In this document: in pieces, positions 922-23,372 of the stretch | Numbering within the stretch: the stretch's first letter is position 1 | Layout of the letters: each line of letters begins with the position of its first letter | NCBI GenBank assembly: GCA_045648125.1 | Contig: JAZRNJ010000275.1 | Coordinates: 1 to 33,378, forward strand | Origin: Acutalibacteraceae bacterium | Lineage (GTDB): Bacteria > Bacillota > Clostridia > Oscillospirales > Acutalibacteraceae | DNA length: 33,378 bases | Direction of reading: 5' to 3' | Position numbers and translations under genes: made by a program | The notes under the pieces: model-generated | What the model was told of the DNA's origin: nothing | Databases searched by the model: none | The model's input: the letters and a program-made list of their open reading frames with translations, nothing else

Positions 922-1001
922 ATTTTACAACCTCCCAAAATCAATTAACAAAATTTTACCATATTATATGTGGAAAATCAACAAATATTAAGGGGCGCGG
1001 T

Positions 1002-2303: not shown

Positions 2304-2421
2304 TTTTTATGCCTTCTTTCAATTAAAATAAATATCATTAAAAAGCATGTTATTTTACCATAATTTATCAATTTAAGTCAATTGTAATACAGTATATTCT
2401 TTTGGGGTTTATTTGCTAAAA

Positions 2422-2464
2422 AAACGGAACTTTTGACCAATTTTAAAGGTCAGAAGTTCCGTTT
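2422..2464 (-). terminator. Intrinsic terminator downstream of the oxidoreductase gene
   Basis: Stem aaacggaacttttgacc / ggtcagaagttccgttt (one mismatch). On the minus strand it is followed by a T7 run. Confidence 0.6.
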
Positions 2465-2471
2465 GATGCTG

Positions 2472-3716
2472 TTATTCTTTTTCACCTGTGATTTTCAGAT
2501 AATTATTGAGCTTTTCCTCATCAAGAACATAATCAGTTTTTGAACAGCAGGGGATGTCAGGCTCACTTCCGTCTTTTTTGAAGAAAGGAGAAGTAAAATC
2601 ATTTTCCCATTTTTTGCAGTCTTCTTCATTTCTGAAATCAGGGATGTCATAAGGCATACCTTTTTCAAGAATACTGCGATGAGCAAGAATTGCAACAGAA
2701 GCCATAGTTGTTGCAAAATGCGCGTCAAAAACGGGCTTTCTGCCTGTGCGGATGCAGTCGAAAAATTCTTTTATTACAAAGAAGTCGCCACCGCCATGAC
2801 CTGCTTTTTCTGCAAGTTCTTTGTCAACTTCCTCCCATTCAGGGTCATAGCAGTTGATTTCTTCTCTGCCTTCAGGAATCTGCCATGAATTATATCTGAG
2901 CATAACTTTTTCGCCCATACCTCTTAAATTTTCAATCTGACCGTTCTGACAACAGATTCTGTATGAGTTGCCGTGAGCACCGAAACCGGCACATCCTGTA
3001 ACTCTGAAAACAGAGTCGTCATCGTTGAGGGTTGTTATTATTGCTGCTCTGTCAGCAACAGGTGAGCCGAGAGTTTTGTATTCATCAAAGGGTGAAAAAC
3101 AAGCCAGAGCAGTAACTCTTTTCGGAAAAGCACCTGTAATATTCATCAGGGGTGCTAATGAATGAGTTATGTAATATGAACGGGGCAGACGGTTTCTCCA
3201 ATGCTTGAAATAAGGTCTGAGCATTGCGTGGTCTGCAGTGTTGTCGTAGTCAAAGGGATGATTATATTCTCCCTCAGCAAAGAGAACTTTACCGAGAGTA
3301 CCGTCCTCGTATACTTTTTTCATTTCCTGATTGAAAAGCATGTAGGGATAGTTTTCGGCAAGCATGTACATTCCCTTGCTTTTCTTTGCTGCTCTCATGA
3401 GCTGAACACCTTCACCCATAGTGGCGTTACTTGTACATTCACTGAGCACATGAAGGTCTTTTTCAAGGGTACGGATAACGAAAGGAGTATGTTCATGGAA
3501 ACAGTTTGCAATAAAAACTGCATCCATATCATGCTCAATAAATTCATCAAAATCATTATATCCTTTTGTACTGTTACCGAGATAATCAAGAGCTTCACTG
3601 AGCTTTTTATCATCTCTTTCGCAGATTGCAACAATTTCTCCGTTGTTGTTGGTAATGTTATCGAAATAGTTACTGCCTCTGCCGAGACCGAAAACGCCGA
3701 TTCTGATTTTTTTCAT
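2472..3716 (-). CDS. Gfo/Idh/MocA family oxidoreductase
   Basis: N-terminal Rossmann motif MKKIRIGVFGLGRGS, a 414-aa length and overall layout typical of the family. SD aagagg. Confidence 0.85.
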   Translation of the reverse strand: MKKIRIGVFGLGRGSNYFDNITNNNGEIVAICERDDKKLSEALDYLGNSTKGYNDFDEFIEHDMDAVFIANCFHEHTPFVIRTLEKDLHVLSECTSNATMGEGVQLMRAAKKSKGMYMLAENYPYMLFNQEMKKVYEDGTLGKVLFAEGEYNHPFDYDNTADHAMLRPYFKHWRNRLPRSYYITHSLAPLMNITGAFPKRVTALACFSPFDEYKTLGSPVADRAAIITTLNDDDSVFRVTGCAGFGAHGNSYRICCQNGQIENLRGMGEKVMLRYNSWQIPEGREEINCYDPEWEEVDKELAEKAGHGGGDFFVIKEFFDCIRTGRKPVFDAHFATTMASVAILAHRSILEKGMPYDIPDFRNEEDCKKWENDFTSPFFKKDGSEPDIPCCSKTDYVLDEEKLNNYLKITGEKE

Positions 3717-3818
3717 AAGAAAGACCTCTTTTCATATTGTGTGAAGATTTTTCTGAGTCGTTTTGCTGAGTATATATTTTATCACAAAGAAAGAAGCAAG
3801 TCAATTTTGGTAAGTCAG

Positions 3819-4787
3819 TTACCAGGTAAGTATAATTTCCGGATTTTCAAAGATTTCATCAAGTTTTTTAATGAAAGGGACAAGGTCTTTTGCACCGCCG
3901 ATTTTATGGTCAAAACTCAGTGATATGGGCAGGATTTTTTTAGTGCCAAGCTGTAAATTGCCGTTTTCATCTTTATATACATATTCCGTGTCTCTTGTTC
4001 TGCCGGTTGCAAAAAGAAAAACCTGAGGGTACAAAACGGGAATATACGTAATGTTTACGTTGAGATTGTCGTAAAGTGGTCCCCAGTTACTGAAACATAC
4101 GGTTCCTTCGTTCAGTTCTTCAAGCTTCAGACCATCGGGAGAAGTGAAGCTTTTCTTTCCTGTAAGTTTAAGGAAATCTGATTTCAGCGATTCTGTAAGG
4201 TGAATAGCTCTGCCTTTCCCGAAACATGCTCCGATAGTCTGACAAAATGAAGAAAGAAATTTTCCTCTCAAAAGGTCTCCTACAACACGCTGTCTTGAAA
4301 CCTCGTACATTGTATCCTCAAGGTCTGTGTTTCGGAGTCTTCGCTGAGCATCTTCTGCAAGAAAAGCTGTTTCTTCCAGATTTTTGTCTTCAAGATTCAT
4401 GATTTTTACCTGAAAGGTTTTCTCCTCTTCAAGGCTAATTGCCATTGAAACGTTAATATGTTTTTTTATTATCAGTTTTCCTGAGGTTGCACGATGATTA
4501 TATTTGAAATGAGCGTTCAGTTTTGGTGCAACTTTCAAACCTTCAACAAGTATTTTTAACATTAGTGAGTTGAAGGTAAGTCTGTAGCCGCATTCTGAAC
4601 GGAATTTTTCGAAAACCTCAATGAGTTTAGTTACATCAGCTTCATAAGTGCAGGAAACACCGGGGATGTTTCTCTGAGAATTGACAAGCACATTACTTGT
4701 CATTTTTTCACCCAGACTCATGTATTTGATTATGTCGCCCTCTTCAGCATCAAGTCCTGACTTTTTGATGTATTCTTTAAGGTTCAT
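3819..4787 (-). CDS. 2-oxoacid dehydrogenase acyltransferase catalytic-domain protein (no lipoyl or E3-binding domains)
   Basis: C-terminal SLSFDHKIGGAKDLVPFIKKL matches the E2 catalytic His motif (DHRxxDG), here as the variant DHKIGGA. At 322 aa it corresponds to the catalytic domain only. Confidence 0.65.
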   Translation of the reverse strand: MNLKEYIKKSGLDAEEGDIIKYMSLGEKMTSNVLVNSQRNIPGVSCTYEADVTKLIEVFEKFRSECGYRLTFNSLMLKILVEGLKVAPKLNAHFKYNHRATSGKLIIKKHINVSMAISLEEEKTFQVKIMNLEDKNLEETAFLAEDAQRRLRNTDLEDTMYEVSRQRVVGDLLRGKFLSSFCQTIGACFGKGRAIHLTESLKSDFLKLTGKKSFTSPDGLKLEELNEGTVCFSNWGPLYDNLNVNITYIPVLYPQVFLFATGRTRDTEYVYKDENGNLQLGTKKILPISLSFDHKIGGAKDLVPFIKKLDEIFENPEIILTW

Positions 4788-4834
4788 TTTTTTACCTGCT
4801 TTCGGGAGTTTTTATTAAACATTGCTATGAAATT

Positions 4835-4866
4835 AAAATCCCATTCGTGTGTACGAACGGGATTTT
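4835..4866 (-). terminator. Hairpin plus T-run immediately 3' of the tRNA fragment (native tRNA terminator)
   Basis: aaaatcccattcg / cgaacgggatttt (one mismatch). On the minus strand it is followed by TTTTAATTT. Confidence 0.5.
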
Positions 4867-4867
4867 C

Positions 4868-4927
4868 TGGCGGAGAGCAAGGGATTCGAACCCTCGAACA
4901 GGCTTTGACCTGTTACACGATTTCCAA
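4868..4927 (-). tRNA. 3' fragment of tRNA-Ser(GGA), anticodon loop to CCA; duplicated att core, not a functional tRNA
   Basis: The minus strand reads TTGGAAATCGTG-(variable arm AACAGGTCAAAGCCTGTT)-C-GAGGGTTCGAATCCCTT-GCTCTCCGCCA. This covers the anticodon loop (GGA), 3' anticodon stem, long variable arm, T-arm and 3' acceptor with CCA. The required 5' acceptor GGAGAGC, the D-arm and the 5' anticodon stem (CACGA) are absent upstream, where the sequence is ...AAAGCCC. Confidence 0.75.
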
Positions 4928-4974
4928 GGGCTTTGATTTTGAGTAATATCAAGGTTTCTTAATTATGTGTGGCA

Positions 4975-6027
4975 TTATCCGTGGCAACGAATTTCATTGG
5001 ATAAAAATTCGTTCAGTTTAGACTTCGCCTCGTCTCTACGCTCTTGTCTGATATGGATATAGATTTCCTTCGTGAGAGATATTTTGGCGTGTCCCATGAT
5101 ATTTTGTAAGTCTTTTTCATCAAGATTTGCATCGAAACACAAAGTTGCAAAATAGTGTCTGAGCTGATGTGATGTGCAGGAGATTCCTGCATCTTTTCTG
5201 TACTTAGAATATGCTTTGTCGAAACGTCCTTTATTGATAAGTTCACCGTCAACGGTAAAGATGAAGCCTGTTTGTTTATCTGCCCCGTGTTGTATGAGAA
5301 TATTTTTCAGAGGAAACAGAAGCGGGATAGTTCTCAATCCTGCGGCACTTTTCAGACTGGTCCTCAGAACGGGCTTGTTACTCTCGAAAATAAGTGCTTT
5401 ATTTACACTTATAGTGTCTGAATTGAAGTTTATATCCTCGAATTTAAGTGCCAGAGCCTCTTCTCTGCGTAAACCTGTGTACATCAGCAAGTTACAGTAT
5501 AAACCCATTAAACCGTCAGTATGAGCCTTTATTGCCAAGATTTCACTATCTGTCGGAATTGTTCTTGCTGTTGTATGAGCTTTTTTTGGAACTTTACAGA
5601 CGGAAATTGGGTTATATGAAACAATTTCGTTGAATATTGCATAGTTAAAAATTTGATTCATAACAATCTTTCTCAGATTTATTGTATGCTTTGCATAACC
5701 TCTGTCAGCCATTCTTTCAAGGAACTGCTGAAACATAATTGATGTAATATCAGTGAGCAATAACTCACCAAATTCTTCTTTCAGGTCCTTTAATGGTGCT
5801 TTGTAACCATCTGATGTATAGTGCTGTATTTCCTTGTCGTGAGCTTCTTCCCATTCATCAGCAATATTGCTGAAGTTCTTTGTGAATTTTCTTCTGATTT
5901 CCTCTTCAACTTTCTTTTGTTTCTCTACGAACTCCTGATGCGTTCTGTAGGATATGGTTCTTCTTACTTTTTCTCCATCAACATCAATAGTGATTTTTGA
6001 GAATTTGCGTTCTTTTTTCTTTGCCAT
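4975..6027 (-). CDS. int: Tyrosine recombinase / phage integrase
   Basis: Catalytic motifs GLRREEALAL, HQLRHYF and GHAKISLTKEIYIH. Start placed at ATG 6027 (MAKKKERKF) behind AGGAGGAG; the ORF-track start at 6075 has no SD. Confidence 0.9.
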   Translation of the reverse strand: MAKKKERKFSKITIDVDGEKVRRTISYRTHQEFVEKQKKVEEEIRRKFTKNFSNIADEWEEAHDKEIQHYTSDGYKAPLKDLKEEFGELLLTDITSIMFQQFLERMADRGYAKHTINLRKIVMNQIFNYAIFNEIVSYNPISVCKVPKKAHTTARTIPTDSEILAIKAHTDGLMGLYCNLLMYTGLRREEALALKFEDINFNSDTISVNKALIFESNKPVLRTSLKSAAGLRTIPLLFPLKNILIQHGADKQTGFIFTVDGELINKGRFDKAYSKYRKDAGISCTSHQLRHYFATLCFDANLDEKDLQNIMGHAKISLTKEIYIHIRQERRDEAKSKLNEFLSNEIRCHG

Positions 6028-6189
6028 TTTATCTCTCCTCCTTGATTTTTGCGTGTAAATATGATAAAATGACAAAGCAATGCCATTTCATCTCTTTTGG
6101 TTTAGGGTGGATGTTATTGCACTCCCTTGTCGGTTGCCGCCGGCAGGGGAATTTTTTATTGTTTTCCTCGGTGTTGCCGCACCGGAGTT

Positions 6190-12954: not shown

Positions 12955-14337
12955 ATGAAAAACATCACTTACATAAAAGTTGAAGAAATTTATGCGCATC
13001 CTGACAATCCGAGAAAAGACCTCGGTGATTTGTCAGAACTTGCAGACAGCATAAGAGAAAACGGAATCTTTCAGAACCTGACTGTTGTTCCGTTGAAAAA
13101 CAAAACAAAACCTGATTTAAAACTTAACGGTTACACCGTTATCATCGGACACCGCCGTCTTGCTGCAGCGAAACAGGCAGGACTTGACGTTGTTCCCTGC
13201 ATTGTCACAGAAATGGATGAGAAAACACAACTGTCAACAATGCTTCTTGAAAACATACAGAGGTCAGACCTTACAGTATATGAACAGGCTCAGGGTTTTC
13301 AGATGATGCTTGACCTGGGCAGTACGTTGTCAGAACTGAAAAAGAAAACAGGATTTTCACTTACAACGATTCGTCATCGTATCAATCTGTTGGACCTTGA
13401 CAAAGATAAATTCAAGGAATCTGAATCACGTGGAGCAAGGATAACAGACTATATTGAACTCGAAAAAATCAAAGATATCAAGAAGAGAAACGAGCTTCTT
13501 GAAAAAATTGGCACATCTGATTTCAACTACTCCATTAAAAGGGCAATCGAGGAAGAAAAGAAAAAACAGAACGTAAAAGATTGGACTGACCTTTTCAATA
13601 GCATTCCCTCAATGCAAAAAACAACCGATAGAAGCGGGAAACAGTATTTAGAGAGTTTCGGTGTGTACAGTTCGGGTCCCACTGAAAAAGCAAGAGAGAA
13701 AATTGTCAACCTGATTGATGAAGCAGATGAAAAGGAAAAAGCTCTTTACTGGTTTTTCGACGGTTGGGGAAACATTTATATTTATACCGATTCGGATAAT
13801 AAGACTTCATCAGAGCCACCGTGGGCAAAAGAACAAAGAATCAGGGATAAGAAAAATGCTCTCATAAAAGAACTTGAAGAAACAGCATATCAGTGCAGGC
13901 TGTCTTTTGTCAAAAACTATATAGGTAAAAAAGAAGAATTGACATATCTTTTAAAAGAACTTTTAAATCAGCTTAGTAACTGGTGCAATGCTACTGAAAA
14001 ATATGTTGCAGAAATGCTCGGTATCGAAAGCATTGACGAGAGTGAAGAAATAAAAAACAACTCCAAATTCAAGGAAATCGTTTGTAATCAACCTCAGAGA
14101 GCGGTCATTGTATATCTGTTTGAAAGTTTGGATTATTATACAGAGTATTATGAGTATAAACGCTGTGATTTTCACGACCCATATAGCGGAGATTTTCGTT
14201 TAAAAGAGAACATCAAGCTTCTTTACGATATTCTCGGTCGCATAGGTTATGAGCCAAGCAGTGATGAAATTATGCTTATGGATGGCACACACCCGATATT
14301 CAAACAGATGAGCGAGGTAACAGATGATGAAAACTAA
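12955..14337 (+). CDS. ParB/Srx N-terminal-domain protein with a long C-terminal extension
   Basis: IYAHPDNPRKDLGDLSELADSIRENGIFQNLTVVP..YTVIIGHRRLAAAKQAGLDVVPCIV contains the ParB-N GxRR-type box. SD GAAAGAAGG. Confidence 0.8.
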   Translation: MKNITYIKVEEIYAHPDNPRKDLGDLSELADSIRENGIFQNLTVVPLKNKTKPDLKLNGYTVIIGHRRLAAAKQAGLDVVPCIVTEMDEKTQLSTMLLENIQRSDLTVYEQAQGFQMMLDLGSTLSELKKKTGFSLTTIRHRINLLDLDKDKFKESESRGARITDYIELEKIKDIKKRNELLEKIGTSDFNYSIKRAIEEEKKKQNVKDWTDLFNSIPSMQKTTDRSGKQYLESFGVYSSGPTEKAREKIVNLIDEADEKEKALYWFFDGWGNIYIYTDSDNKTSSEPPWAKEQRIRDKKNALIKELEETAYQCRLSFVKNYIGKKEELTYLLKELLNQLSNWCNATEKYVAEMLGIESIDESEEIKNNSKFKEIVCNQPQRAVIVYLFESLDYYTEYYEYKRCDFHDPYSGDFRLKENIKLLYDILGRIGYEPSSDEIMLMDGTHPIFKQMSEVTDDEN

Positions 14338-16032: not shown

Positions 16033-16512
16033 ATGCAGAATAAATATAAACTCCCTGATGATGTGAGAGAAACAGTAATCAGACTTGTTAAAGGCTACGA
16101 GCGAAGAAAAAAGAAGATTTCAGATGAAGAAAATGAAATCTGTTCAATCGGTGGCGGAAGATATGAAAGCGTTCGCAATGAAAACGGAGATGAAGAGCGT
16201 GTTTTTCAGCCGTCAGGCAAAGGTGGAAAATCAACACCTGTGGAACATCAGGCAGAAGCAATGATTAAATTACATAACAGTTTTGATTATCGTTGTGTCA
16301 AAGCCATTGATGAAGCACTTGATGAACTGCCGTTGAGCCATTTTGATGAACGAGTTTCAGCAAAAATCAGACAGTGTATGATTATATCCTGCGTATTAGG
16401 AAAAAAATTCAAATTCCGTTATTCAGGTATTATCGGTATCGAACACGACCGATTTTATAAAATTCGCTCAAAATTCTTGTTTTTGATAGCAAAAAAACTT
16501 GAATTGCTGTAA
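16033..16512 (+). CDS. Hypothetical protein; putative late-gene regulator by position
   Basis: GGGAGGG followed by ATG 16033 (or GTG 16027). It is the last forward gene before the packaging module. KLPDDVRETVIRLVKGYERRKKKI is reminiscent of ArpU/RinA-type activators; the functional call rests on position only. Confidence 0.4.
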   Translation: MQNKYKLPDDVRETVIRLVKGYERRKKKISDEENEICSIGGGRYESVRNENGDEERVFQPSGKGGKSTPVEHQAEAMIKLHNSFDYRCVKAIDEALDELPLSHFDERVSAKIRQCMIISCVLGKKFKFRYSGIIGIEHDRFYKIRSKFLFLIAKKLELL

Positions 16513-16573
16513 AAGAGAATACAGTGGAACGAAAAAAGGTGCTAAAATAGTATTATGGACAATTAAGAAAACA

Positions 16574-16603
16574 CAAACGGCAGAGAAAAATCCCTGCCGT
16601 TTG
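16574..16603. terminator. Bidirectional intrinsic terminator (ends the early operon and the reverse RHH gene)
   Basis: caaacggcag / ctgccgtttg stem. T-rich tails follow on both strands (TTTGTGTTTT on the minus strand). Confidence 0.65.
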
Positions 16604-16611
16604 ATATGTGG

Positions 16612-16794
16612 TTATTCTTCAATGTTAAGATATTGCTTTATAGCATTTCTGAAAAAGTCAGCTTTTTTAATGCCGTCTTCTTTCAGTTTTGCTTCAAAGG
16701 CTTCTACGAATTCTTTCTTGTATTCTACTTTGATTTGTTTATAAGCCTTTGCTTTGTACTTTTTGACAGAGTCAGGATAATAATTATTTGCCAT
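16612..16794 (-). CDS. Ribbon-helix-helix (CopG/Arc-like) small DNA-binding protein
   Basis: 60 aa with SD AAAGGAG. KQIKVEYKKEFVEAFEAKLKEDGIKKADFFRNAIKQYL has a beta-strand/helix/helix pattern typical of RHH antitoxins and regulators. Confidence 0.55.
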   Translation of the reverse strand: MANNYYPDSVKKYKAKAYKQIKVEYKKEFVEAFEAKLKEDGIKKADFFRNAIKQYLNIEE

Positions 16795-16940
16795 TGTTTT
16801 TCTCCTTTGCGAAAGATACTAAATCGTTGATTTGAAGAACAAGCAGTATTGCAAGTGTGCAAACATAGAAAATTTTTAAAAACTTCTTCACTTTTTGAAA
16901 ATGGTGTGATATAATAACATTGTGATAAGTACCCTACTCA

Positions 16941-16963
16941 GGGAGGTTGTCAGCCTCCCTTTT
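16941..16963 (+). terminator. Plus-strand hairpin plus T4, 11 nt beyond the stop of the reverse-strand peptide gene
   Basis: gggagg-ttgtcag-cctccc-tttt. On the minus strand no T-run follows, so it looks plus-strand specific. Confidence 0.5.
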
Positions 16964-16973
16964 CGGTTGGATT

Positions 16974-17063
16974 TTACTTATCCTCTGCGTTCTCGGATAA
17001 TACTTTTACGATTTGCAGTACCGTGAGTATTATACCGAGAATTTTTGTTATTAACTCAACCAT
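16974..17063 (-). CDS. 29-aa hydrophobic peptide (Fst/holin-like type I toxin candidate)
   Basis: Below the ORF-track cutoff. Minus strand: AAAGGAGGTGA, 5 nt, ATG (17063-17061), encoding MVELITKILGIILTVLQIVKVLSENAEDK, with TAA at 16976-16974. One TM helix with a charged tail. Confidence 0.55.
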   Translation of the reverse strand: MVELITKILGIILTVLQIVKVLSENAEDK

Positions 17064-17089
17064 GTTGTTCACCTCCTTTCACTGTCATT

Positions 17090-17118
17090 ATTATATCATA
17101 TTAGTACGAATATGTCAA
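17090..17118 (-). promoter_or_regulatory. Perfect consensus sigma-A promoter driving the hydrophobic peptide
   Basis: Minus strand: TTGACA (17118-17113), exactly 17 nt, TGaTATAAT (hexamer 17095-17090). Confidence 0.7.
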
Positions 17119-17168
17119 TGCTTTTTTGCAAATTTTTTGAAAAAATATAAATATTTTTAAGTTTTTTT

Positions 17169-17191
17169 GCACCCTTTATGGGTGCTTTTTT
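17169..17191 (+). terminator. Plus-strand intrinsic terminator just upstream of the HNH/packaging operon
   Basis: gcaccc-tttat-gggtgc followed by T6. On the minus strand the hairpin is followed by A-runs, so it is plus-strand specific. Confidence 0.6.
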
Positions 17192-17224
17192 GTTGCCTTT
17201 TTTACTTCAAAGGAGTGTAATTTT

Positions 17225-17578
17225 ATGCCGAGAAAACCGAAATCGCCTTGCAGATATCCTGGGTGTCCGAGATTGTGCGAGGGCAGGTATTGCGAGGAAC
17301 ATACAACAAAGGTTAATTACGAATACAACAACCGACAGAGAGACCCGAACACATACAAACGCTATGGAAGCGGGTGGAGAGCGATAAGCAAAGCATATAA
17401 AGAAAAACATCCTCTGTGCGAGGACTGCCTTAAAGAAGGCAGATATGTAGCATCAGAGGAAGTTCACCACATTGTGGCTTTGCGGAACGGCGGAACACAT
17501 TCTTTCAACAACCTGAAAGCGTTGTGCAAGAGTTGTCATTCAAGATATACCCTCGAAGAAAACAGGGGTAGGGGGTAA
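17225..17578 (+). CDS. HNH endonuclease (packaging-associated, HK97 gp74-like)
   Basis: EEVHHIVALRNGGTHSFNNLKALCKSCHS, N-terminal Cys clusters, SD AAAGGAG, and a position immediately upstream of terS. Confidence 0.9.
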   Translation: MPRKPKSPCRYPGCPRLCEGRYCEEHTTKVNYEYNNRQRDPNTYKRYGSGWRAISKAYKEKHPLCEDCLKEGRYVASEEVHHIVALRNGGTHSFNNLKALCKSCHSRYTLEENRGRG

Positions 17579-17591
17579 AAAATCTCTACAG

Positions 17592-17683
17592 TTTGCGGAA
17601 AATTCAACGGCGTTAGGGTATCGTGTAAATTTTCGCAAAAGTTTTAAGGGGTATTAAGAAAAGTTTTAAAAGTTATTAAGAAA
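17592..17683. promoter_or_regulatory. Candidate cos/terminase-recognition region (inverted repeat plus 22-bp tandem repeat)
   Basis: Inverted repeat ttgcggaaaatt (17593-17604) / aattttcgcaa (17628-17638). Tandem repeat aagttttaaGGGGtattaagaa (17639-17660) and aagttttaaAAGTtattaagaa (17661-17682), 19/22 identical. The region lies between HNH and terS. Confidence 0.35.
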
Positions 17684-17694
17684 GGAGCAGAAAT

Positions 17695-18225
17695 ATGGGT
17701 AAAAGAGGACCTAAACCCGGTAGTGGTGGCCGACCACCGAAGGCAATATCAGAGAAAATTATTGAAGGAAACCCGGGAAAAAGAGAGTTAAATGTAGTTG
17801 CTTTCCCTACATCTGAGCAGTCAACAATGCCTAAACCGAGAAAATATTTATCGGAAAAACAGCTTTTTTCAAACCTGAAACTGGATGCAAAGCAGATTTA
17901 TACAGAAACTTGGGAGTGGTTAAAAGAACGTGGTTGTGAACAGCTTGTTTCAAAGACGGTAATAGAGAGATATGCCATTGCTGCAGCAAGAGCAATTCAG
18001 TGTGAACAGTGTATTTCTTCTGAAGGTTTCTTAGCCGAACATCCTACGACTCATGCGGATATTGCTTCTCCTTACGTTACAATTTCAGAAAAATATACGA
18101 AGCAGGCAAATAATATGTGGGGTATGATTTATCAAATAGTTAAAGAAAATTGTTTATCTCCTTTGAATGGTAACGGTTCAAACGAGGACCCAATGGAAAG
18201 TTTACTTAAGAGAAAAGGTGGATAA
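17695..18225 (+). CDS. terS: Terminase small subunit, P27 family
   Basis: MGKRGPKPGSGGRPPKAISEKIIEGNPGKRELN is the characteristic P27-family N-terminus. SD AAAGGAG. Confidence 0.85.
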   Translation: MGKRGPKPGSGGRPPKAISEKIIEGNPGKRELNVVAFPTSEQSTMPKPRKYLSEKQLFSNLKLDAKQIYTETWEWLKERGCEQLVSKTVIERYAIAAARAIQCEQCISSEGFLAEHPTTHADIASPYVTISEKYTKQANNMWGMIYQIVKENCLSPLNGNGSNEDPMESLLKRKGG

Positions 18226-18226
18226 A

Positions 18227-20356
18227 GTGAGGAAAATAAAAATTGATTTTACAAGTTTGAATTGTTTCGATAGTATTTTTGTAGGTTATACCGGAGAACA
18301 CAATGCAACAGAGCTTTTGCTTGTTGTGCCTGAAGAAATGATAAACAAATCTGATTATCAGATAGTTGTTATTCAATCTGGGGCGACTATATTCAAATCA
18401 GATGAAGTAAGAGATGATAACAATAAATCTTATTACAGAAGCGGTAATACAATACACATGAAGCTTGACAAAATGTTTACTCAATTCACAAGGCTTTCTA
18501 TTCAAGTGGAGTTTTTTAAAAGTAATGATTCAGGTGAGGTTGTTCTTATCGCAAAGACTCCTGTGGTACCAAATGTTTTTTTGAAACCATCACCGAACAG
18601 TAATGTTCAAATAGATTTTGAAGGCAATGAAATTGCAACAGTAACAACAAACAAGATTGCAGACGGTGCGGTTACAACTCCAAAGATTGCAGACGAAGCA
18701 GTTACAACAGAAAAGATTGCAGATGAAGCAATTACTCCTGAAAAACTCGACAGAGAATATTTAACCGAACACCAGAGTTTGGAAGGTTATGCTACCGAAG
18801 AATATGTCAATGAGGCAATAGATGACATCAAGTTAAAAGAAGGTTCTGTTACAACAGAAAAGCTCGACAACAATGCAGTAACTGAAGACAAAATTCTTGA
18901 TGGTTCTGTTACACCTGAAAAACTTGACAGAAAATATTTAACCGAACAAGTTCAGTCAGACCACACCCAGAACGACCCGACAAAGCCCGACTATATCAAG
19001 AACAGACTTGCATATTATTGCAGGAAGTTTGAAGACATTCATGCGTTAGAATACAATCCGCCAAAAGCGATGTCTATGACTGCGGATATAGATGAGCAGC
19101 TGTTTATGTATAAAATAGCAGAATATCCCGAAAACGCAAATCCCACAGAGTTGATTGAAGAAATTATAGAACTGAGAATGGCCGATCAAGGTATGAACAT
19201 TAATGATGTCAACTATCAGGACACGGTTATCCGTAAAACTCTCACAAACGAAAACGGTCACACTGTCGGCGCGGTAATTGTGTGCGGTCCTAAGAGCGGA
19301 CAAGCACCTTATGTTTTAGCAGTAAACGATGATAATATAAATGTTTTTTCTACCATATCCTACGAGCAAAATGGCGAAATTCTCGAAATACCGGTCTCTT
19401 TTTATATTACAGAAAAAGGTATTTACGGTATAGTTTTCGAGTCAGAAACAGATGAGAATGATAAAATAGTCAAATGTAGAGGACTAGATACAATTATATT
19501 TAGGAGTGCTAAAAAGATTGACAAGGAATTACTCCCGCCTATGGTTTGGGATGATATTGAAAATAAACCTTTTGGTGAAGTCGATGAAAAACTTATTGAT
19601 GTTACTTTTGACGGCGTAATTCGCGAAGACTCTATCGTTACAAATAGTATCGAACTTGTTGGTAACGTGTTTACCTACGTTAAAGTAGGCGAATTACCTT
19701 ATACATCGGATAAATACATTTCAAAAATACAATCTATTTTAGTGGACATGGGTGGTTATGCACAAACATTTGTTGTACAGGATTTAGATAAGAAGACTTT
19801 CCCAAATGCCGTGATGTTAAGTCATAATGTAGCGTTTACTCTTGTTATTGCCGTTGATGCTCCAGGAGTAATTAACGTCGCTGAAGGTGTAATAGAAATA
19901 GAATGTCCCGAAGCGGGTCTATATTTGGCAGTTGCAAAATCAGGCGAAACATATATGCACGTTGAAGAAATTATTTTTTCGAGTCAAAAAAGACTTGATG
20001 AAAAGTACATGCCCGAAACATATGTCCAAATGCAAAGTGACATTAATCAATACGCAATTGTTAAACAGAAAGTCGATGATCTAGCGTCAAGCGTTGCTGC
20101 TCTTTGGACGGATAAATCAGATTCTTCAGTCGTTACTGCCGTATCAAGAAGCGTCGATAATCTGTCAACAAGAGTCGATAATCTGTCAACAAGAGTCAAT
20201 AATCTGTCAACAGAAATTAATAGTCTGAAAACAGCTATACCCCAAGATTACATGCCCGATGTACCAACAGAGTCCCGAGAAGGTTATTTCTTGCGCGTTG
20301 TCAACGGAAAGTGGGACGCAGTAAAGATTCCAATAGCGGAGGAGGGCGAATACTAA
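18227..20356 (+). CDS. BppU-like tail fibre / baseplate upper protein homologue with fibre repeats and C-terminal coiled coil
   Basis: GTG 18227 behind AAGGTGG. The N-terminal IKIDFTSLN..FVGYTGEHNATELLLVVPEE resembles BppU_N. It has 10-aa repeats KIADGAVTTP/KIADEAVTTE/KIADEAITPE, related GSVTTEKLD and GSVTPEKLD motifs, and heptads SVDNLSTRVDNLSTRVNNLSTEINSLK. Confidence 0.6.
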   Translation: MRKIKIDFTSLNCFDSIFVGYTGEHNATELLLVVPEEMINKSDYQIVVIQSGATIFKSDEVRDDNNKSYYRSGNTIHMKLDKMFTQFTRLSIQVEFFKSNDSGEVVLIAKTPVVPNVFLKPSPNSNVQIDFEGNEIATVTTNKIADGAVTTPKIADEAVTTEKIADEAITPEKLDREYLTEHQSLEGYATEEYVNEAIDDIKLKEGSVTTEKLDNNAVTEDKILDGSVTPEKLDRKYLTEQVQSDHTQNDPTKPDYIKNRLAYYCRKFEDIHALEYNPPKAMSMTADIDEQLFMYKIAEYPENANPTELIEEIIELRMADQGMNINDVNYQDTVIRKTLTNENGHTVGAVIVCGPKSGQAPYVLAVNDDNINVFSTISYEQNGEILEIPVSFYITEKGIYGIVFESETDENDKIVKCRGLDTIIFRSAKKIDKELLPPMVWDDIENKPFGEVDEKLIDVTFDGVIREDSIVTNSIELVGNVFTYVKVGELPYTSDKYISKIQSILVDMGGYAQTFVVQDLDKKTFPNAVMLSHNVAFTLVIAVDAPGVINVAEGVIEIECPEAGLYLAVAKSGETYMHVEEIIFSSQKRLDEKYMPETYVQMQSDINQYAIVKQKVDDLASSVAALWTDKSDSSVVTAVSRSVDNLSTRVDNLSTRVNNLSTEINSLKTAIPQDYMPDVPTESREGYFLRVVNGKWDAVKIPIAEEGEY

Positions 20357-21348
20357 TGAGCGAAGTTTTAATACAAGAAACAACTCTTACAGAAATTGGT
20401 GATGCTATTAGAGAAACCCATAAAATAGAAGGTGCTATATCACCGTTGCAAATGCCGTCTAAGATCAGAGAATCGATTCTCGGTTATTTAGATACCTCGA
20501 TTATAATCGACTGGTGCGCTTGGTTCCAACATGGTCGAAATGTTAATACAGCTGATTATATAAATACAAGTAATGGCATGGTGTTCGATAACATGTTTGA
20601 CGGTTTTGTTTTTCCTGGAGTGAACGAGTATAGCGATGAAGATCTTATGAACATCCTTAGCAGACTCGATTTACGCAAAGGTGTATCCTTTAACCATTTT
20701 TTAGCAAATAATAAGGGCGCTTTTTCGGGAGCTAACACTAAAACTCTTATGACGATAAATGGTTATACGTTCAACTCGTGTTTCGAACAATGTAATGAAA
20801 TGCGTTTTGCGCCTGAGATAATGACTGATAGAGGTGAATTTTTTAGCCGCATGTTTTATGGTTGTGAGTTGCTTATTGGTATCGGGCTTACTAATACAAT
20901 AGACGTTTCGAATGTTAAACCAGAAAATTCAGATAACGCGTTATATTACATGTTTGCAGATTGCCGTAGTCTACAGAGATTAACACTTAAAACAAATAAT
21001 TTGAACAGTGATGCTTTGCAACGAACTTTCTACAATATGACAAGTCTTAAGAATTTGTCTATTAACGGTAAAATAATAGTGAACTCTAATAGTAACGTCG
21101 GGTTAAACGTTGCATATAGTTCTAACCTAACAGTAGAAAGTCTTATTAATTTGTTAGAATCTTTGGAAAACCCAGAGAAAGAAACCACATCATATACAGT
21201 AGCAATTGGAACAACAAATTATAGGAAATTGGAAGCATACATCAGACCTGAAACCATCACCGATGAAAATCCTAACGGTCTCAAATACACAGATGACGAA
21301 GATCATATTTTAAACATAGTTGCAGCTAAAAATATAGTTGTATCATAG
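20356..21348 (+). CDS. DUF285/BspA-type leucine-rich-repeat protein (receptor-binding-like)
   Basis: ATG 20356 (TAATG overlap) behind GGAGGAGGG. Repeated F-x-x-C-x-x-L motifs: MFYGCELLIGIGL, YMFADCRSLQRLTL, TFYNMTSLKNLSI. Confidence 0.55.
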   Translation: MSEVLIQETTLTEIGDAIRETHKIEGAISPLQMPSKIRESILGYLDTSIIIDWCAWFQHGRNVNTADYINTSNGMVFDNMFDGFVFPGVNEYSDEDLMNILSRLDLRKGVSFNHFLANNKGAFSGANTKTLMTINGYTFNSCFEQCNEMRFAPEIMTDRGEFFSRMFYGCELLIGIGLTNTIDVSNVKPENSDNALYYMFADCRSLQRLTLKTNNLNSDALQRTFYNMTSLKNLSINGKIIVNSNSNVGLNVAYSSNLTVESLINLLESLENPEKETTSYTVAIGTTNYRKLEAYIRPETITDENPNGLKYTDDEDHILNIVAAKNIVVS

Positions 21349-21360
21349 GGAGGGTTAATA

Positions 21361-21660
21361 ATGAGTATAAACAATAACTTAGTTGAAAACATCCTGCCTA
21401 ATCTCAATGCTATAAAACGTGTTATAAACGGCGTTTTTTATTTTTGGGAATTATCGGTAACATCAGACGAATATTTATTACACGTTCCGGCTAACGATTA
21501 TAACGGTCTCGATCCGGCTGGTAATGCAGTATACGAACCGTATTATACATACGGTCCTATCAACATACCAACAGAAAACTATGACTGGTCAACAAACCCT
21601 GACGGCTATGAAGCAATTCTCAAATCCACTATTCCGCCTGAAACATTACAAACATTGTGA
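21361..21660 (+). CDS. Hypothetical protein (99 aa)
   Basis: SD GGGAGGG. No family recognised. Confidence 0.6.
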   Translation: MSINNNLVENILPNLNAIKRVINGVFYFWELSVTSDEYLLHVPANDYNGLDPAGNAVYEPYYTYGPINIPTENYDWSTNPDGYEAILKSTIPPETLQTL

Positions 21661-21685
21661 GGAGAAATGAAACTATGATAAAAGT

Positions 21686-21784
21686 TTGTGGAGCGTTGAC
21701 TGTGTGGCAAATGCAGTCATCAAAGGTTGTATAACAATTGATGAATTCAAGGAATTTACGGGATTCAGGTATGCGGAAACTTGA
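21686..21784 (+). CDS. XkdX-like micro-protein (start uncertain: TTG 21686, or ATG 21675 plus a frame change in the A-run)
   Basis: This frame reads (NYDKS)LWSVDCVANAVIKGCITIDEFKEFTGFRYAET, matching the XkdX pattern W..v..aV.kG.IT.eEy.eITG..Y. The well-placed GAGGAG (21660-21665) plus ATG 21675 is in a different frame (+1 nt needed). Confidence 0.45.
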   Translation: MWSVDCVANAVIKGCITIDEFKEFTGFRYAET

Positions 21785-23372
21785 AACATATACACCCACT
21801 CCATATATGGCTGAAACTTCACACTATGATAAGGATGCGGCAGACTATGCTGTGGATTTTATCAGTTGTCTGAAGCACACCAAAGGTAAGTGGCACGGAA
21901 AACCATTTGACCTTATTGATTGGCAGGAAAAAATCATTCGTGATATCTTTGGTACAATCAAAGAAAATGGCTATCGTCAATTCAACACGGCATATGTTGA
22001 AATTCCAAAAAAGCAGGGGAAATCAGAAATTGCAGCAGCTCTTGCGTTGCTTCTGACCTGCGGTGATGGAGAAGAGCGTGCGGAAGTTTATGGTTGTGCA
22101 GCTGACAGAACTCAGGCATCAATCGTGTTTAATGTTGCAGCTGATATGGTCAGGTTATGTCCGGCTCTTAATTCAAGAGTAAAAATAAACGAATCTCAAA
22201 AACGCTTGACATATCTGCCGACGATGAGTGTCTATCAAGTCCTTTCAGCTGATGTTGCTAATAAACATGGTTTTAATGTTTCCGGAGTTGTTTTCGATGA
22301 GCTTCATACTCAACCTAATAGAAAACTCTACGATGTAATGACAAAAGGTTCAGGTGATGCAAGAAATCAGCCGTTATTCTTCCTTATAACTACTGCAGGA
22401 GATAACCAGAACAGTATCTGTTGGGAAGTGCATCAGAAAGCACTTGACATAATTGAGGGCAGAAAGAAAGATGAAACTTTTTACCCGGTTATTTTCGGTG
22501 CTCCTATGGATGCTGACTGGACTGACCCTAAAGTATGGGCAGAAGCAAATCCTTCATTAGGAATAACAGTAGATATAGATAAAGTTCGTGCGGCATGTGA
22601 ATCTGCAAAACAGGACCCTGCAGAAGAAAACAGTTTCAGGCAGTTGAGACTTAATCAATGGGTAAAACAAGCAGTCAGATGGATGCCCATGGAAAAATGG
22701 GACAAATGCAAAACTAAAATTGACTTTGAAAAGTTAAAAGGCAGAGAGTGCTATGCAGGTCTTGATCTTTCATCAACAACAGATATAACAGCTTTTGTTC
22801 TTGTCTTTCCCCCTGAAAATGAAGATGAAAAATATATCATTGTGCCTTTCTTCTGGATTCCTGAGGAAAACATCCAATTAAGGGTACGGCGAGACCATGT
22901 AATGTATGATGTGTGGGAAAAACAAGGCTTTTTGGAAACCACCGAGGGCAATGTATTGCACTATGGTTTCATTGAAAAGTTCATAGAAGAATTAGGCAAG
23001 GTATATAACATAAAAGAAATTGCTTACGACCGATGGGGAGCGCCTCAGATGGCTCAGAATCTCGAAGAACTCGGATTTACCGTTATTCCGTTCGGTCAAG
23101 GTTTCAAAGATATGTCACCGGCATCAAAGGAATTGATGAGATTAACATTAGGTGAACAAATAGCTCACAATGGTCATCCTGTATTACGGTGGATGATGGA
23201 TAATATTTTCATCCGTAAGGACCCTGCAGGAAACATCAAACCTGATAAAGAAAAAAGCACAGAAAAAATTGACGGTGTCATTGCAACAATAATGGCCCTT
23301 GATAGGGCGACAAAGCGTGAAATAAGCTCTTTTGTCTCGGTTTACGAAGACAGAGGGCTTTTATTTATTTAA
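21771..23372 (+). CDS. terL: Terminase large subunit (Terminase_1 family)
   Basis: HTKGKWHGKPFDLIDWQEKIIRDIFG, Walker A-like EIPKKQGKSEIAAALAL, FDELH, and a C-terminal nuclease part. Start chosen at ATG 21771 (MRKLETYTPTPY); 21741 and 21807 are alternatives and none has a good SD. Confidence 0.9.
   Translation: MRKLETYTPTPYMAETSHYDKDAADYAVDFISCLKHTKGKWHGKPFDLIDWQEKIIRDIFGTIKENGYRQFNTAYVEIPKKQGKSEIAAALALLLTCGDGEERAEVYGCAADRTQASIVFNVAADMVRLCPALNSRVKINESQKRLTYLPTMSVYQVLSADVANKHGFNVSGVVFDELHTQPNRKLYDVMTKGSGDARNQPLFFLITTAGDNQNSICWEVHQKALDIIEGRKKDETFYPVIFGAPMDADWTDPKVWAEANPSLGITVDIDKVRAACESAKQDPAEENSFRQLRLNQWVKQAVRWMPMEKWDKCKTKIDFEKLKGRECYAGLDLSSTTDITAFVLVFPPENEDEKYIIVPFFWIPEENIQLRVRRDHVMYDVWEKQGFLETTEGNVLHYGFIEKFIEELGKVYNIKEIAYDRWGAPQMAQNLEELGFTVIPFGQGFKDMSPASKELMRLTLGEQIAHNGHPVLRWMMDNIFIRKDPAGNIKPDKEKSTEKIDGVIATIMALDRATKREISSFVSVYEDRGLLFI

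What the first reader, a model, noticed from the sequence alone, without database searches (positions are those of the whole stretch)
18227..21784. Tail-fibre / receptor-binding-like cassette between terS and terL
terS (17695-18225) and terL (about 21771-23372) are separated by 3.5 kb holding four co-oriented, tightly coupled ORFs. The first is a 709-aa protein with a BppU_N-like N-terminus, KIADGAVTT-type fibre repeats and a C-terminal heptad coiled coil. The others are a 330-aa DUF285/BspA-type LRR protein, a 99-aa protein, and an XkdX-like micro-ORF, which in PBSX-like elements marks the end of a tail-fibre module. In HK97-like siphophages terS and terL are normally adjacent or overlapping. 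Here the canonical tail module lies 7 kb downstream (major tail 28014 through Tal at the window end). This therefore looks like a second or displaced adhesin module embedded in the packaging operon. It could be a host-range moron, a head fibre or decoration set, or a mobile cassette exploiting terminase co-expression.
Basis: partly seen in the sequence, partly recalled or inferred. Interest (0 to 1): 0.75.

Follow-up and report, generated by a model that had tools for sequence, protein, structure and literature searches.

The report
Accessory fibre cassette between terminase genes
A prophage of a widespread gut-phage lineage carries a swappable four-gene tail-fibre/adhesin set between its two DNA-packaging genes, a slot that in this lineage always holds optional cargo, so the placement is unusual but explicable.

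Summary
terS (17695-18225) and terL (21771-23372) are separated by four tightly coupled ORFs: a 709-aa fibre, a 330-aa DUF285/LRR protein, a 99-aa protein and a 5'-truncated XkdX.

It is a genuine tail-fibre-type module. A myophage prophage (L089) carries homologues of these genes at the normal place, the end of its tail genes before lysis. The fibre's N-terminal 125 aa fold like the TP901-1 BppU baseplate anchor. This domain defines about 170 protein clusters with varied distal domains (LRR, collagen, pectate lyase, lipase).

The premise that terS and terL should be adjacent fails for this lineage (TerL 74-78% identical to 'Ca. Heliusvirales' phages). All 49 relatives examined have a 2.2-7.4 kb gap, usually holding DNA methyltransferases and SAM synthetase.

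The fibre is sporadic cargo in that slot. The closest relatives hold different cassettes behind the same N-domain. In another subgroup, one of about 38 loci with sequence upstream of terL has a fibre as a clean 1.96 kb indel, although a DUF859 protein follows its Tal. A third relative has no fibre after Tal.

Most likely this is a late-expressed, virion-attached accessory host-range fibre. Its attachment site (baseplate, neck or head) is unresolved. It is a new variant of a known kind, of moderate interest.

The parts
17225..17578 (+). HNH endonuclease, the usual partner of a cos-type terminase and the first gene of the late block
   Evidence: PF01844 5.5e-13; phrog_144 1.7e-31. 98% aa identity in L084-L086.
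17695..18225 (+). Terminase small subunit (P27/Terminase_4 type); 5' border of the cargo slot
   Evidence: Terminase_4 33.3 bits (cutoff 24.7); phrog_83 2e-30. 86-92% aa identity in L084-L086.
18227..18601 (+). Fibre protein (709 aa), residues 1-125: conserved all-beta anchor domain
   Evidence: 67-76% aa identity to P0002/P0003 and about 51% to P0020/P0024. AF2 model pLDDT 76.5, pTM 0.71. Foldseek top PDB hit is the 298-residue chain 4v96_AL of the TP901-1 baseplate, which I take from memory to be BppU (E 1.5e-4, TMq 0.57). BFVD hits are tail, baseplate, BppU-domain and neck-passage proteins. 173 protein clusters carry it, nearly always at the N-terminus.
18602..18946 (+). Fibre residues 126-240: 10-residue shaft repeats (KIADGAVTT type)
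   Evidence: TRF period 30 at 18639-18735; repeat family D1. phrog_892 8.4e-16 and phrog_28766 2e-13, both 'tail fiber protein'. About 880 BLAST alignments among the 120 listed homologues.
18947..20026 (+). Fibre residues 241-600: beta-rich distal domains. Residues 241-445 are shared with fibres of other phages; residues 446-600 are unique.
   Evidence: About 40% aa identity to P0017, P0002 and P0018 over about 200 aa. The AF2 model is poor overall (mean pLDDT 43), with moderately confident beta structure only for fibre residues about 286-426.
20027..20356 (+). Fibre residues 601-709: heptad coiled coil (VDNLSTR x3) and a C-terminal tip motif EGYFLRVVNGKWDAV
   Evidence: 21-nt tandem array at 20144-20212. 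Weak coiled-coil Pfam hits. The tip motif is shared with the L085 and L089 fibres.
20356..21348 (+). 330-aa DUF285/BspA-type LRR protein; candidate distal adhesin
   Evidence: LRR_5 1.2e-3, sub-threshold. 27% aa identity over 277 aa (E 4e-16) to the 332-aa L089 tail-module protein, which passes DUF285 at 4.4e-12. The N-terminal motif LIQxxTLTxIxxAIRE is shared with the LRR_5 proteins that follow the fibres in L085 and L089.
21361..21660 (+). 99-aa protein of unknown role; travels with the DUF285 protein
   Evidence: 35% aa identity (2.5e-10) to the 99-aa gene that follows the DUF285 gene in the L089 tail module. No Pfam, PHROG or PDB hit.
21686..21784 (+). XkdX-family micro-ORF, 5'-truncated; its 3' end contains the terL start
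   Evidence: PF09693 8.7e-8, matching profile positions 12-40 only. 62-73% aa identity to XkdX of L085 and L089. In-frame XkdX-like codons run back to a TGA at 21668, and the ATG at 21667 is out of frame.
21771..23372 (+). Terminase large subunit; 3' border of the cargo slot
   Evidence: TerL_nuclease 2.2e-49, TerL_ATPase 7.6e-21, phrog_9 1.3e-183. 95-97% aa identity in L084/L085 and 74-78% in deposited 'Ca. Heliusvirales' genomes.

Best explanation
The 3.5 kb region is an accessory, virion-attached fibre/adhesin module. It sits in a cargo slot between terS and terL that exists in every examined relative of this HK97-like, HNH-terminase prophage lineage.

Shown:
- The slot is always open in relatives and usually carries DNA methyltransferases and SAM synthetase.
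- Homologues of all four window genes sit at the tail end of a myophage prophage (L089).
- The cassette is bracketed by conserved DNA and differs between the closest relatives.
- A fibre with the same N-domain is a clean presence/absence indel directly upstream of terL in another subgroup.

Inferred mechanism:
- The genes are transcribed late with the terminase genes and are translationally coupled to them.
- The 709-aa protein forms a fibre, presumably trimeric. Its conserved N-terminal beta-sandwich (BppU-like fold) docks on a conserved virion structure.
- Its repeat shaft, beta-rich domains and coiled coil project outwards.
- Its C-terminal tip motif holds the N-terminal motif of the 330-aa DUF285/LRR protein, which acts as the distal adhesin.
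- The 99-aa and XkdX proteins are small assembly or tip accessories.
- Recombination swaps everything distal to the N-domain with tail-fibre modules of other phages, changing host range or adsorption.
For: Lineage-wide slot:
- In 49 of 49 relatives with both genes, the terS-terL gap is 2185-7428 bp.
- The gap content is ParB_N/N6_N4 methyltransferase (a cluster present in 28 of 34 dereplicated loci), SAM synthetase, C5 methyltransferase, GGACT and amidoligase.

Tail-fibre identity:
- PHROG tail-fibre hits of 8.4e-16 and 2e-13.
- The L089 myophage has DUF285(332)-99aa-fibre(426)-LRR_5(694)-61aa-XkdX before its endolysin.
- Against the L085 terS-terL cassette, L089 shows 51%, 58%, 60% and 72% aa identity gene for gene. 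The window's 330-aa and 99-aa proteins match the L089 DUF285 and 99-aa proteins (4e-16, 2.5e-10).

Anchor domain:
- The AF2 model has pLDDT 76.5.
- The best PDB match is the TP901-1 baseplate chain 4v96_AL (E 1.5e-4).
- 46 BFVD hits at E<=1e-3 are tail, baseplate or BppU proteins.
- 173 clusters carry the domain, nearly always at the N-terminus, followed by LRR_5, collagen, pectate lyase, GDSL lipase or YadA domains.
- Distant members sit after the Tal-like gene and before lysis genes in L088, L102 and L221.

Cassette behaviour:
- Similarity to L084 ends at 18634 and resumes at 21770. Similarity to L085 ends at 18594 and resumes at 21711.
- L084 carries a 473-aa fibre and a 210-aa LRR_5 protein. 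L085 carries a 411-aa fibre, a 696-aa LRR_5 protein, a 58-aa protein and XkdX.

Accessory nature:
- In L139 the fibre is a 1.96 kb indel. The same site is 129 nt in L185 and 646 nt in L154 and L162, with flanks 87-90% identical.
- Only one of about 38 sibling loci has the fibre, and that phage still has Tal plus a DUF859 protein.

Late co-expression:
- Ribosome-binding sites and start/stop overlaps link the genes.
- There is no + strand terminator between 18227 and 21784, and promoter-like matches across the scanned region are not above the shuffle expectation.
Against: - No experimental or proteomic evidence places any of these proteins in a virion.
- The N-domain does not match Pfam BppU_N at sequence level. 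Its fold match is moderate (TMq 0.57) and Ig-like folds are common.
- The distal two-thirds of the fibre could not be modelled (pLDDT 43).
- The 330-aa protein is below the Pfam LRR_5 threshold.
- XkdX is 5'-truncated, so part of the cassette may be decaying.
- The region downstream of Tal could not be seen for the window (the contig ends) or for its closest relatives. Whether this phage has another fibre is therefore unknown.
- The proposed fibre-tip/LRR N-terminus pairing rests on four loci only.
Confidence: 0.62

Rival explanations
1. The products form a fibre/adhesin, but it attaches to the neck (collar or whisker, like lactococcal neck passage structures) or to the capsid rather than to the tail tip. 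The gene lies with the head and packaging genes because it assembles with heads.
For: - BFVD fold hits include lactococcal 'neck passage structure' proteins (E 8e-4 to 1.2e-3, TMq 0.55). The second PDB hit is a phage Bas63 connector chain.
- The fibre occurs with different tail tips: Tal alone in L114 and Tal plus DUF859 in L139. This fits a docking site that is conserved across the lineage, such as the portal or connectors.
- Its sporadic, dispensable distribution resembles what I recall of neck passage structures.
Against: - The best fold match is a baseplate protein, TP901-1 BppU.
- Distant sequence relatives of the N-domain sit after Tal-like genes at tail ends.
- Homologues of the distal parts sit in a myophage baseplate/tail module.
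- Gene position is weak evidence in a slot that also holds methyltransferases.
Confidence: 0.22
2. A lysogenic-conversion moron: the LRR and fibre proteins are made in the lysogen as bacterial surface adhesins and are not part of the virion.
For: BspA-type LRR_5/DUF285 proteins are typically annotated as bacterial cell-surface proteins; the weak PDB hit is 4gt6, 'Cell surface protein'. The slot carries non-structural cargo in most relatives.
Against: - No signal peptide or membrane anchor is visible in either N-terminus (sequences).
- There is no + strand terminator within the cassette and no excess of promoter-like sites. The genes share orientation with, and are coupled to, terS and terL.
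- Homologues of these genes lie inside a tail module.
- The N-domain has a phage baseplate-type fold.
Confidence: 0.05
3. A non-functional remnant: a tail-fibre fragment captured by illegitimate recombination into a permissive slot and now decaying.
For: XkdX has lost its 5' end and its ATG is out of frame. The 709-aa protein is found on only one contig in the database.
Against: - Three long ORFs (709, 330 and 99 aa) are intact in a 36-38% GC region, with good ribosome-binding sites.
- The N-domain is conserved across relatives at 35-76% aa identity, always as an intact full-length gene directly upstream of terL or directly after terS.
- Different intact cassettes occupy the same site in the closest relatives.
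Confidence: 0.07
4. The proteins have a role in DNA packaging or terminase function.
For: Only their position between terS and terL.
Against: - No similarity to any packaging protein.
- Relatives package with entirely different genes, or only 129 nt, at the corresponding site.
- All detectable homology is to fibres and adhesins.
Confidence: 0.02

Closest known systems
BppU (baseplate upper protein) of lactococcal phage TP901-1 and related 'BppU domain' fibre proteins
   Same: The N-terminal beta-sandwich has the same fold class: top Foldseek PDB hit 4v96_AL at E 1.5e-4, and BppU-domain proteins in BFVD. The architecture is the same, with a conserved N-terminal anchor followed by a variable distal part that holds or is followed by the receptor-binding unit.
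   Different: There is no sequence-level match to Pfam BppU_N. The gene lies between terS and terL, not between Tal and the RBP. The distal partner is a DUF285/LRR protein, not a BppL-type RBP.
PBSX-type tail-fibre end module (XkdV-XkdW-XkdX), as seen in the L089 myophage prophage
   Same: The window has a fibre gene followed by small genes and an XkdX-family micro-ORF (PF09693). Gene-for-gene homology to the L089 tail-end module.
   Different: The module lies at the head of the late operon instead of before the lysis genes. XkdX is truncated. The 99-aa protein does not match XkdW. An LRR/DUF285 protein is inserted.
Lactococcal neck passage structure (collar/whisker) proteins
   Same: BFVD fold similarity of the N-terminal domain. 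The distribution among otherwise near-identical phages is accessory and sporadic.
   Different: There is no sequence similarity. The attachment site of the present fibre is unknown. The genomic position differs.
terS-terL cargo region of 'Ca. Heliusvirales' phages, e.g. Erysipelothrix phage phi1605 (MF172979) and NatCom phages (de Jonge et al. 2024, PMC11283538)
   Same: The backbone is the same: HNH, terS, gap, terL, portal, ClpP protease, HK97-type capsid. The window's TerL is 74-78% identical to these phages' TerL.
   Different: Those genomes fill the gap with SAM synthetase, methyltransferases and small genes. The paper notes these genes as common but, in the passages I searched, does not describe the slot or fibres in it. 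Here the gap holds only a fibre cassette.
Displaced minor tail genes in mycobacteriophage Marvin (recalled from the literature, not checked here)
   Same: It is a precedent for siphophage tail-fibre-type genes encoded away from the tail module.
   Different: It is an unrelated lineage and the location is different (right arm, not between the terminase genes). No cassette exchange at a defined slot has been described for it, to my knowledge.

Membership tests
Terminase small subunit, Terminase_4 (P27) family: the 17695 gene | Profile match above the curated threshold, with a position next to HNH at the start of the packaging block | tested here: met
   PF05119 33.3 bits against a cutoff of 24.7; phrog_83 2e-30; HNH lies 117 nt upstream.
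Pfam BppU_N (PF10651) / lactococcal BppU | Sequence-profile match to BppU_N | tested here: not met
   No hit at E<=0.1 for the 709-aa protein. None of 82 N-domain family members hits BppU_N at E<=1e-3. hhalign of the N-domain profile against a protein with a precomputed BppU_N hit gave probability 0.2%.
Pfam BppU_N (PF10651) / lactococcal BppU | N-terminal domain with the BppU N-terminal fold | tested here: met
   AF2 model pLDDT 76.5. Foldseek top PDB hit 4v96_AL (TP901-1 baseplate, 298-residue chain) at E 1.5e-4, TMq 0.57, 14% identity. The match is moderate, not strong.
Pfam BppU_N (PF10651) / lactococcal BppU | Gene lies in the baseplate block between Tal and the RBP, and the protein docks on Dit/Tal | tested here: not met
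   The gene lies between terS and terL. Docking cannot be tested with these tools.
Phage_XkdX (PF09693) | Profile match above the gathering score over the whole ~40-aa family | tested here: inconclusive
   32.5 bits against a cutoff of 23.5, but only profile positions 12-40 match. The first 9-15 codons are missing and the start is a TTG.
BspA-type LRR_5 / DUF285 repeat proteins (the 330-aa protein) | Profile match above the curated threshold | tested here: inconclusive
   LRR_5 19.2 bits against a cutoff of 27.7. BLASTP 4e-16 to the L089 protein, which passes DUF285 at 46.2 bits against a cutoff of 25. No structure model could be made because no homologue search remained.
'Ca. Heliusvirales' (de Jonge et al. 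2024) | TerL homology to the order | tested here: met
   TerL is 74-78% aa identical to genomes deposited as Ca. Heliusvirales (PV036458, PV036421) and to phi1605.
'Ca. Heliusvirales' (de Jonge et al. 2024) | Presence of the nine marker genes used by the authors | not tested
   Portal, protease, capsid and terS relatives are present. I did not extract the full marker list or check it.
Classical moron (autonomous transcription unit inside a late operon) | Own promoter and terminator flanking the insert | tested here: not met
   No + strand terminator-like site lies between 18227 and 21784. Promoter-like hits number 31 against 24.8+/-5.2 expected, and none scores above 10 of 12 on the + strand inside the cassette. 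This was a consensus scan only.
Invertible (shufflon/Gin-type) tail-fibre segment | Inverted repeats flanking alternative fibre C-termini | tested here: not met
   No inverted repeat pair brackets any part of the cassette.

The most novel reading that the evidence does not exclude
It plugs accessory fibres onto a virion feature conserved across 'Ca. Heliusvirales', possibly the neck or head rather than the baseplate. On this reading the site just upstream of terL is a dedicated plug-in host-range locus in one of the most widespread human-gut phage orders. Whole distal cassettes (fibre tip, LRR adhesin, small proteins, XkdX) would be exchanged between siphophages and myophages sharing a host.
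Probability: 0.3. Interest if true: 0.65.

Novelty: new variant of a known kind. Interest (0 to 1): 0.45.

Why it matters
The window's TerL and backbone match 'Ca. Heliusvirales', a lineage of temperate phages reported to be among the most prevalent in the human gut (PMC11283538). What sets the host range of these phages is unknown.

If the fibre cassette upstream of terL is a functional, exchangeable adsorption module, three things follow:
- It gives a defined locus for predicting and engineering host range in these phages.
- It explains one class of contents of a cargo slot that otherwise holds anti-restriction enzymes.
- It adds a new N-terminal anchor family, absent from Pfam and PHROGs and from about 50,000 deposited phage genomes by tblastn, to the catalogue used for annotating receptor-binding proteins.

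It is also a caution for annotation pipelines that assume terS/terL adjacency or look for RBPs only downstream of Tal.

Tried and rejected
- **Homologue search with the bare N-domain.** It returned nothing, although 67-76% identical proteins exist. It was wasted and used the last such search, so no alignment could be built for the 330-aa protein and its structure was not predicted.
- **AF2 of fibre residues 237-709 with seven sequences.** Mean pLDDT was 43, so I did not run a fold search on it.
- **PDB sequence searches.** For the fibre, the LRR protein and the 99-aa protein they gave nothing significant.
- **tblastn of the N-domain against 50,697 deposited phages.** No match.
- **Seeing downstream of Tal in this phage or its closest relatives.** This failed. 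The window is the whole contig. Its Tal fragment has no relative above 61% aa identity among the 120 best hits. No structural protein is identical to those of L084-L086. Exact look-ups of the window's Dit and chaperone found nothing on record.
- **Invertible-segment idea.** Rejected: no flanking inverted repeats.
- **XkdW identity for the 99-aa protein.** Rejected: no Pfam hit at E<=0.1.
- **Literature searches.** I looked for fibre genes between the terminase genes and for XkdX function, and found nothing relevant.

Full report
**1. What is there**

The window is a prophage. Host genes (Na+/H+ exchanger, oxidoreductase, acyltransferase) occupy about 1-4800. A tyrosine integrase lies at 4975-6075 on the minus strand, followed by repressor-type and replication genes.

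The late block starts with an HNH endonuclease (17225-17578) and a Terminase_4 small subunit (17695-18225; 33.3 bits against a cutoff of 24.7; phrog_83 2e-30). The large subunit is at 21771-23372. It is followed by portal, ClpP protease, HK97-type capsid, connectors, major tail protein, tape measure, Dit and the N-terminus of a Prophage_tail-type Tal at the contig end.

- A 709-aa protein starts at GTG 18227, 1 nt after the terS stop, behind an AGGTGG site.
- A 330-aa protein has an ATG that overlaps the preceding stop as TAATG.
- A 99-aa protein follows behind a GGGAGGG site.
- A 32-aa XkdX ORF overlaps terL by 14 nt.

No + strand terminator-like site lies inside the cassette, and promoter-like matches are not enriched (31 found against 24.8+/-5.2 expected).

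**2. The terS-terL split is a lineage trait**

TerL is 74-78% aa identical to genomes deposited as 'Ca. Heliusvirales' and to Erysipelothrix phage phi1605.

I fetched 80 IMG/VR loci through terS (46-55% aa identity). In all 49 that also contain the terL start, the two genes are 2185-7428 bp apart. None has them adjacent, and none has a homologue of the four window proteins.

After dereplication to 34 gaps, the contents are as follows:
- a ParB_N/N6_N4 methyltransferase (one cluster present in 28 loci);
- SAM synthetase;
- C5 cytosine methyltransferase;
- GGACT;
- amidoligase;
- DUF7698;
- HNH_3.

phi1605 shows the same content in its deposited annotation. De Jonge et al. (PMC11283538) report methyltransferase and SAM synthetase as the commonest accessory genes of the order. 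In the passages I searched they do not describe the slot or fibres in it.

The split is the normal state, and the slot holds late-expressed optional cargo. Placing DNA-modifying enzymes next to the packaging genes makes functional sense, because progeny DNA would be modified before packaging. That last point is my inference.

**3. The cassette is a tail-fibre-type module**

The 709-aa protein is modular:
- **Residues 1-125** form a domain conserved in a few proteins.
- **Residues 126-240** are 10-residue shaft repeats. They give the PHROG 'tail fiber protein' hits (8.4e-16, 2e-13) and most database matches.
- **Residues 241-445** are shared at about 40% aa identity with three to five other proteins.
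- **Residues 446-600** are unique.
- **Residues 601-709** are a heptad coiled coil (21-nt array) plus a short C-terminal motif.

The decisive context comes from P0017, which shares the 241-445 region. It lies in a myophage prophage (L089) at the end of the baseplate/tail genes. The order there is DUF285 protein (332 aa), 99-aa protein, fibre (426 aa), LRR_5 protein (694 aa), 61-aa protein, XkdX (55 aa), then the endolysin.

The window's 330-aa protein matches the DUF285 protein (27% over 277 aa, E 4e-16). That DUF285 protein passes the Pfam threshold. The window's 99-aa protein matches the L089 99-aa protein (35%, E 2.5e-10).

L085, a close relative of the window, carries a terS-terL cassette that matches the second half of the L089 module gene for gene. 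The fibre distal part is 51% identical, LRR_5 58% over its full length, the small protein 60% and XkdX 72%. L085 and L089 come from the same metagenome sample.

Homologues of every gene in the window cassette therefore sit in a normal tail-fibre position in another phage.

**4. The N-terminal domain is an anchor**

With a six-sequence alignment, AF2 gives an all-beta domain (pLDDT 76.5, pTM 0.71).

Fold matches:
- The best PDB match is chain AL of 4v96, the TP901-1 baseplate. From its 298-residue length I take this chain to be BppU (E 1.5e-4, TMq 0.57).
- The next matches are a Bas63 connector chain and an 80alpha baseplate chain.
- In BFVD, 46 hits at E<=1e-3 are named tail protein, tail fiber, baseplate component, BppU domain protein or lactococcal neck passage structure.

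At sequence level the domain is not Pfam BppU_N:
- The 709-aa protein gives no hit.
- None of 82 family members hits it.
- hhalign against a protein with a precomputed BppU_N hit gives probability 0.2%.

A profile search of 1.84 billion representatives finds 173 clusters, with the domain nearly always at the N-terminus. Downstream domains include LRR_5 (6 members), collagen, pectate-lyase beta-helix, GDSL lipase, YadA head and fibre repeats. This is the classical pattern of a conserved virion anchor with interchangeable receptor-binding or depolymerase ends.

Distant members (25-33% aa identity) lie after the large Tal-like gene and before the lysis genes in L088, L102 and L221. The domain has no tblastn match in about 50,000 deposited phage genomes. 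The two relatives' full-length fibres that I scanned (from L139 and L091) have no PHROG hit.

**5. Cassette behaviour and accessory status**

The closest relatives (L084, L085, L086) share these aa identities with the window: HNH 98%, terS 86-92%, terL 95-97%, tape measure 94-97%.

All have a fibre starting directly after terS with the same N-domain (67-76% aa identity), but the rest differs:
- L084 has a 473-aa fibre plus a 210-aa LRR_5 protein, and no XkdX.
- L085 and L086 have a 411-aa fibre, a 696-aa LRR_5 protein, a 58-aa protein and XkdX.

DNA similarity to the window stops at 18634 (L084) or 18594 (L085). It resumes at 21770, the terL start, or at 21711, inside XkdX.

More distant relatives keep the methyltransferase cargo and add an N-domain fibre as the last large gene before terL. 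These are L091, L093-L098 and L218, with N-domain identity of 35-51%.

In the L097 group, about 38 loci include sequence upstream of terL, and the group's major tail proteins are mostly 97-99% identical (82-87% in the more distant members). Only one of these loci (L139) has the fibre. It is a clean 1.96 kb indel between a conserved 75-aa gene and terL. The same site is 129 nt in L185 and 646 nt in L154 and L162, with flanks 87-90% identical. L139 still encodes Tal plus a 720-aa DUF859/FN3 protein before holin, like its fibre-less siblings. There the fibre is an extra, dispensable adhesin.

In L114, a different subgroup with 51% N-domain identity, Tal (847 aa) is followed directly by holin, endolysin and serine recombinases. 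There the upstream fibre is the only separate fibre gene.

For the window itself the region after Tal is off the contig, and I could not retrieve it for the closest relatives.

**6. Proposed mechanism**

The cassette is transcribed late with the terminase genes. The 709-aa protein forms a fibre anchored by its N-domain.

Its C-terminal motif (EGYFLRVVNGKWDAV) is shared with the L085 and L089 fibres. The proteins encoded next in those loci, and the window's 330-aa protein, share an N-terminal motif (L-I-Q-x-x-T-L-T-x-I-x-x-A-I-R-E). L084 has a different fibre C-terminus and a different LRR N-terminus. I infer that the fibre tip holds the LRR/DUF285 protein as the distal adhesin. This rests on four loci and is untested.

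The 99-aa and XkdX proteins are probably assembly or tip accessories. XkdX here has lost its 5' end and may be decaying.

Recombination between the conserved N-domain and the XkdX/terL junction would swap specificity.

**7. Rival explanations**

- **Neck or head attachment** cannot be excluded. The evidence for it is the fold hits to neck passage structures and a connector chain, and the fact that the fibre occurs with more than one type of tail tip.
- **A lysogen-expressed surface adhesin** is unlikely. There is no signal peptide and no evidence of an own transcription unit, and homologues of these genes lie in a tail module.
- **A decaying remnant** is unlikely for the three long intact ORFs.
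- **A packaging role** has no support.

**8. Verdict**

The fibre/adhesin reading is supported. The 'anomalous split' premise is not.

This is a new variant of a known kind: a BppU-like-anchored fibre cassette parked in a lineage-specific terminase cargo slot. It is of moderate interest, mainly for host-range biology of a very prevalent gut-phage order.

Noticed in passing
window 21660-21690: The XkdX ORF is 5'-truncated relative to its homologues in L085 and L089. XkdX-like codons (N-Y-D-K-S) continue in frame upstream of the TTG at 21686, back to a TGA at 21668. The ATG at 21667, which follows an AGGAG site, is one base out of frame and opens only a 3-codon ORF. This looks like a frameshift, a deletion at a recombination junction, or an assembly error.
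   Followed up: partly
window 17637-17683: A 22-nt tandem repeat (AAAAGTTTTAAAAGGTATTAAG, 2.1 copies, 88% match) lies in the 116-nt spacer between HNH and terS. It could be a terS binding site or a cos-associated element.
   Followed up: no
window 16512-17225: A 700-nt spacer separates the early and late genes. It holds a perfect sigma-70 consensus promoter on the minus strand (17118-17090; TTGACA, 17-nt spacer, TATAAT, with TG). It also has a 60-aa minus-strand ORF (16612-16794), strong hairpin terminators (16574-16603 minus strand; 16940-16960 and 17169-17185 plus strand) and a possible cos region. Relatives L084 and L085 also have a small minus-strand gene here.
   Followed up: no
window 1-6075: This is the left prophage border. 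Host genes (Na+/H+ exchanger 1002-2303, GFO/IDH/MocA oxidoreductase 2472-3716, 2-oxoacid dehydrogenase acyltransferase 3819-4787) are followed by a tyrosine integrase (4975-6075, minus strand), an M78 peptidase and an HTH repressor pair. The window is the entire contig (33,378 bp).
   Followed up: partly
window 12955-14337: A 460-aa ParB_N-domain protein lies in the early region. In most relatives a ParB_N-methyltransferase fusion sits in the terS-terL slot instead. L084 has a 602-aa C5 methylase in its early region. The anti-restriction cargo may have been relocated in this subclade.
   Followed up: no
L139 11189-12754; L116 462-1745: A second indel hotspot lies in the tail module of relatives. 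A 427-aa AAA_14/DUF4143 ATPase gene is inserted between the tail chaperone genes and the tape measure gene in some members and is absent in siblings. L218 instead has a 215-aa gene and a GNAT acetyltransferase at that position.
   Followed up: partly
L218 13994-14737; L001 7647-8442; L002 7712-8206: The terL-portal junction is a third variable site in relatives. It holds an Nmad4-domain protein, small ORFs, or an aminoglycoside nucleotidyltransferase in phi1605. In the window, terL and portal are only 3 nt apart.
   Followed up: no
L091 8946-9194; L218 12083-12337: In relatives that keep the methyltransferase cargo, the N-domain fibre is followed by an 82-84-aa predicted coiled-coil protein directly before terL. 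It takes the place of the LRR/99-aa/XkdX genes and may be a different fibre accessory.
   Followed up: no
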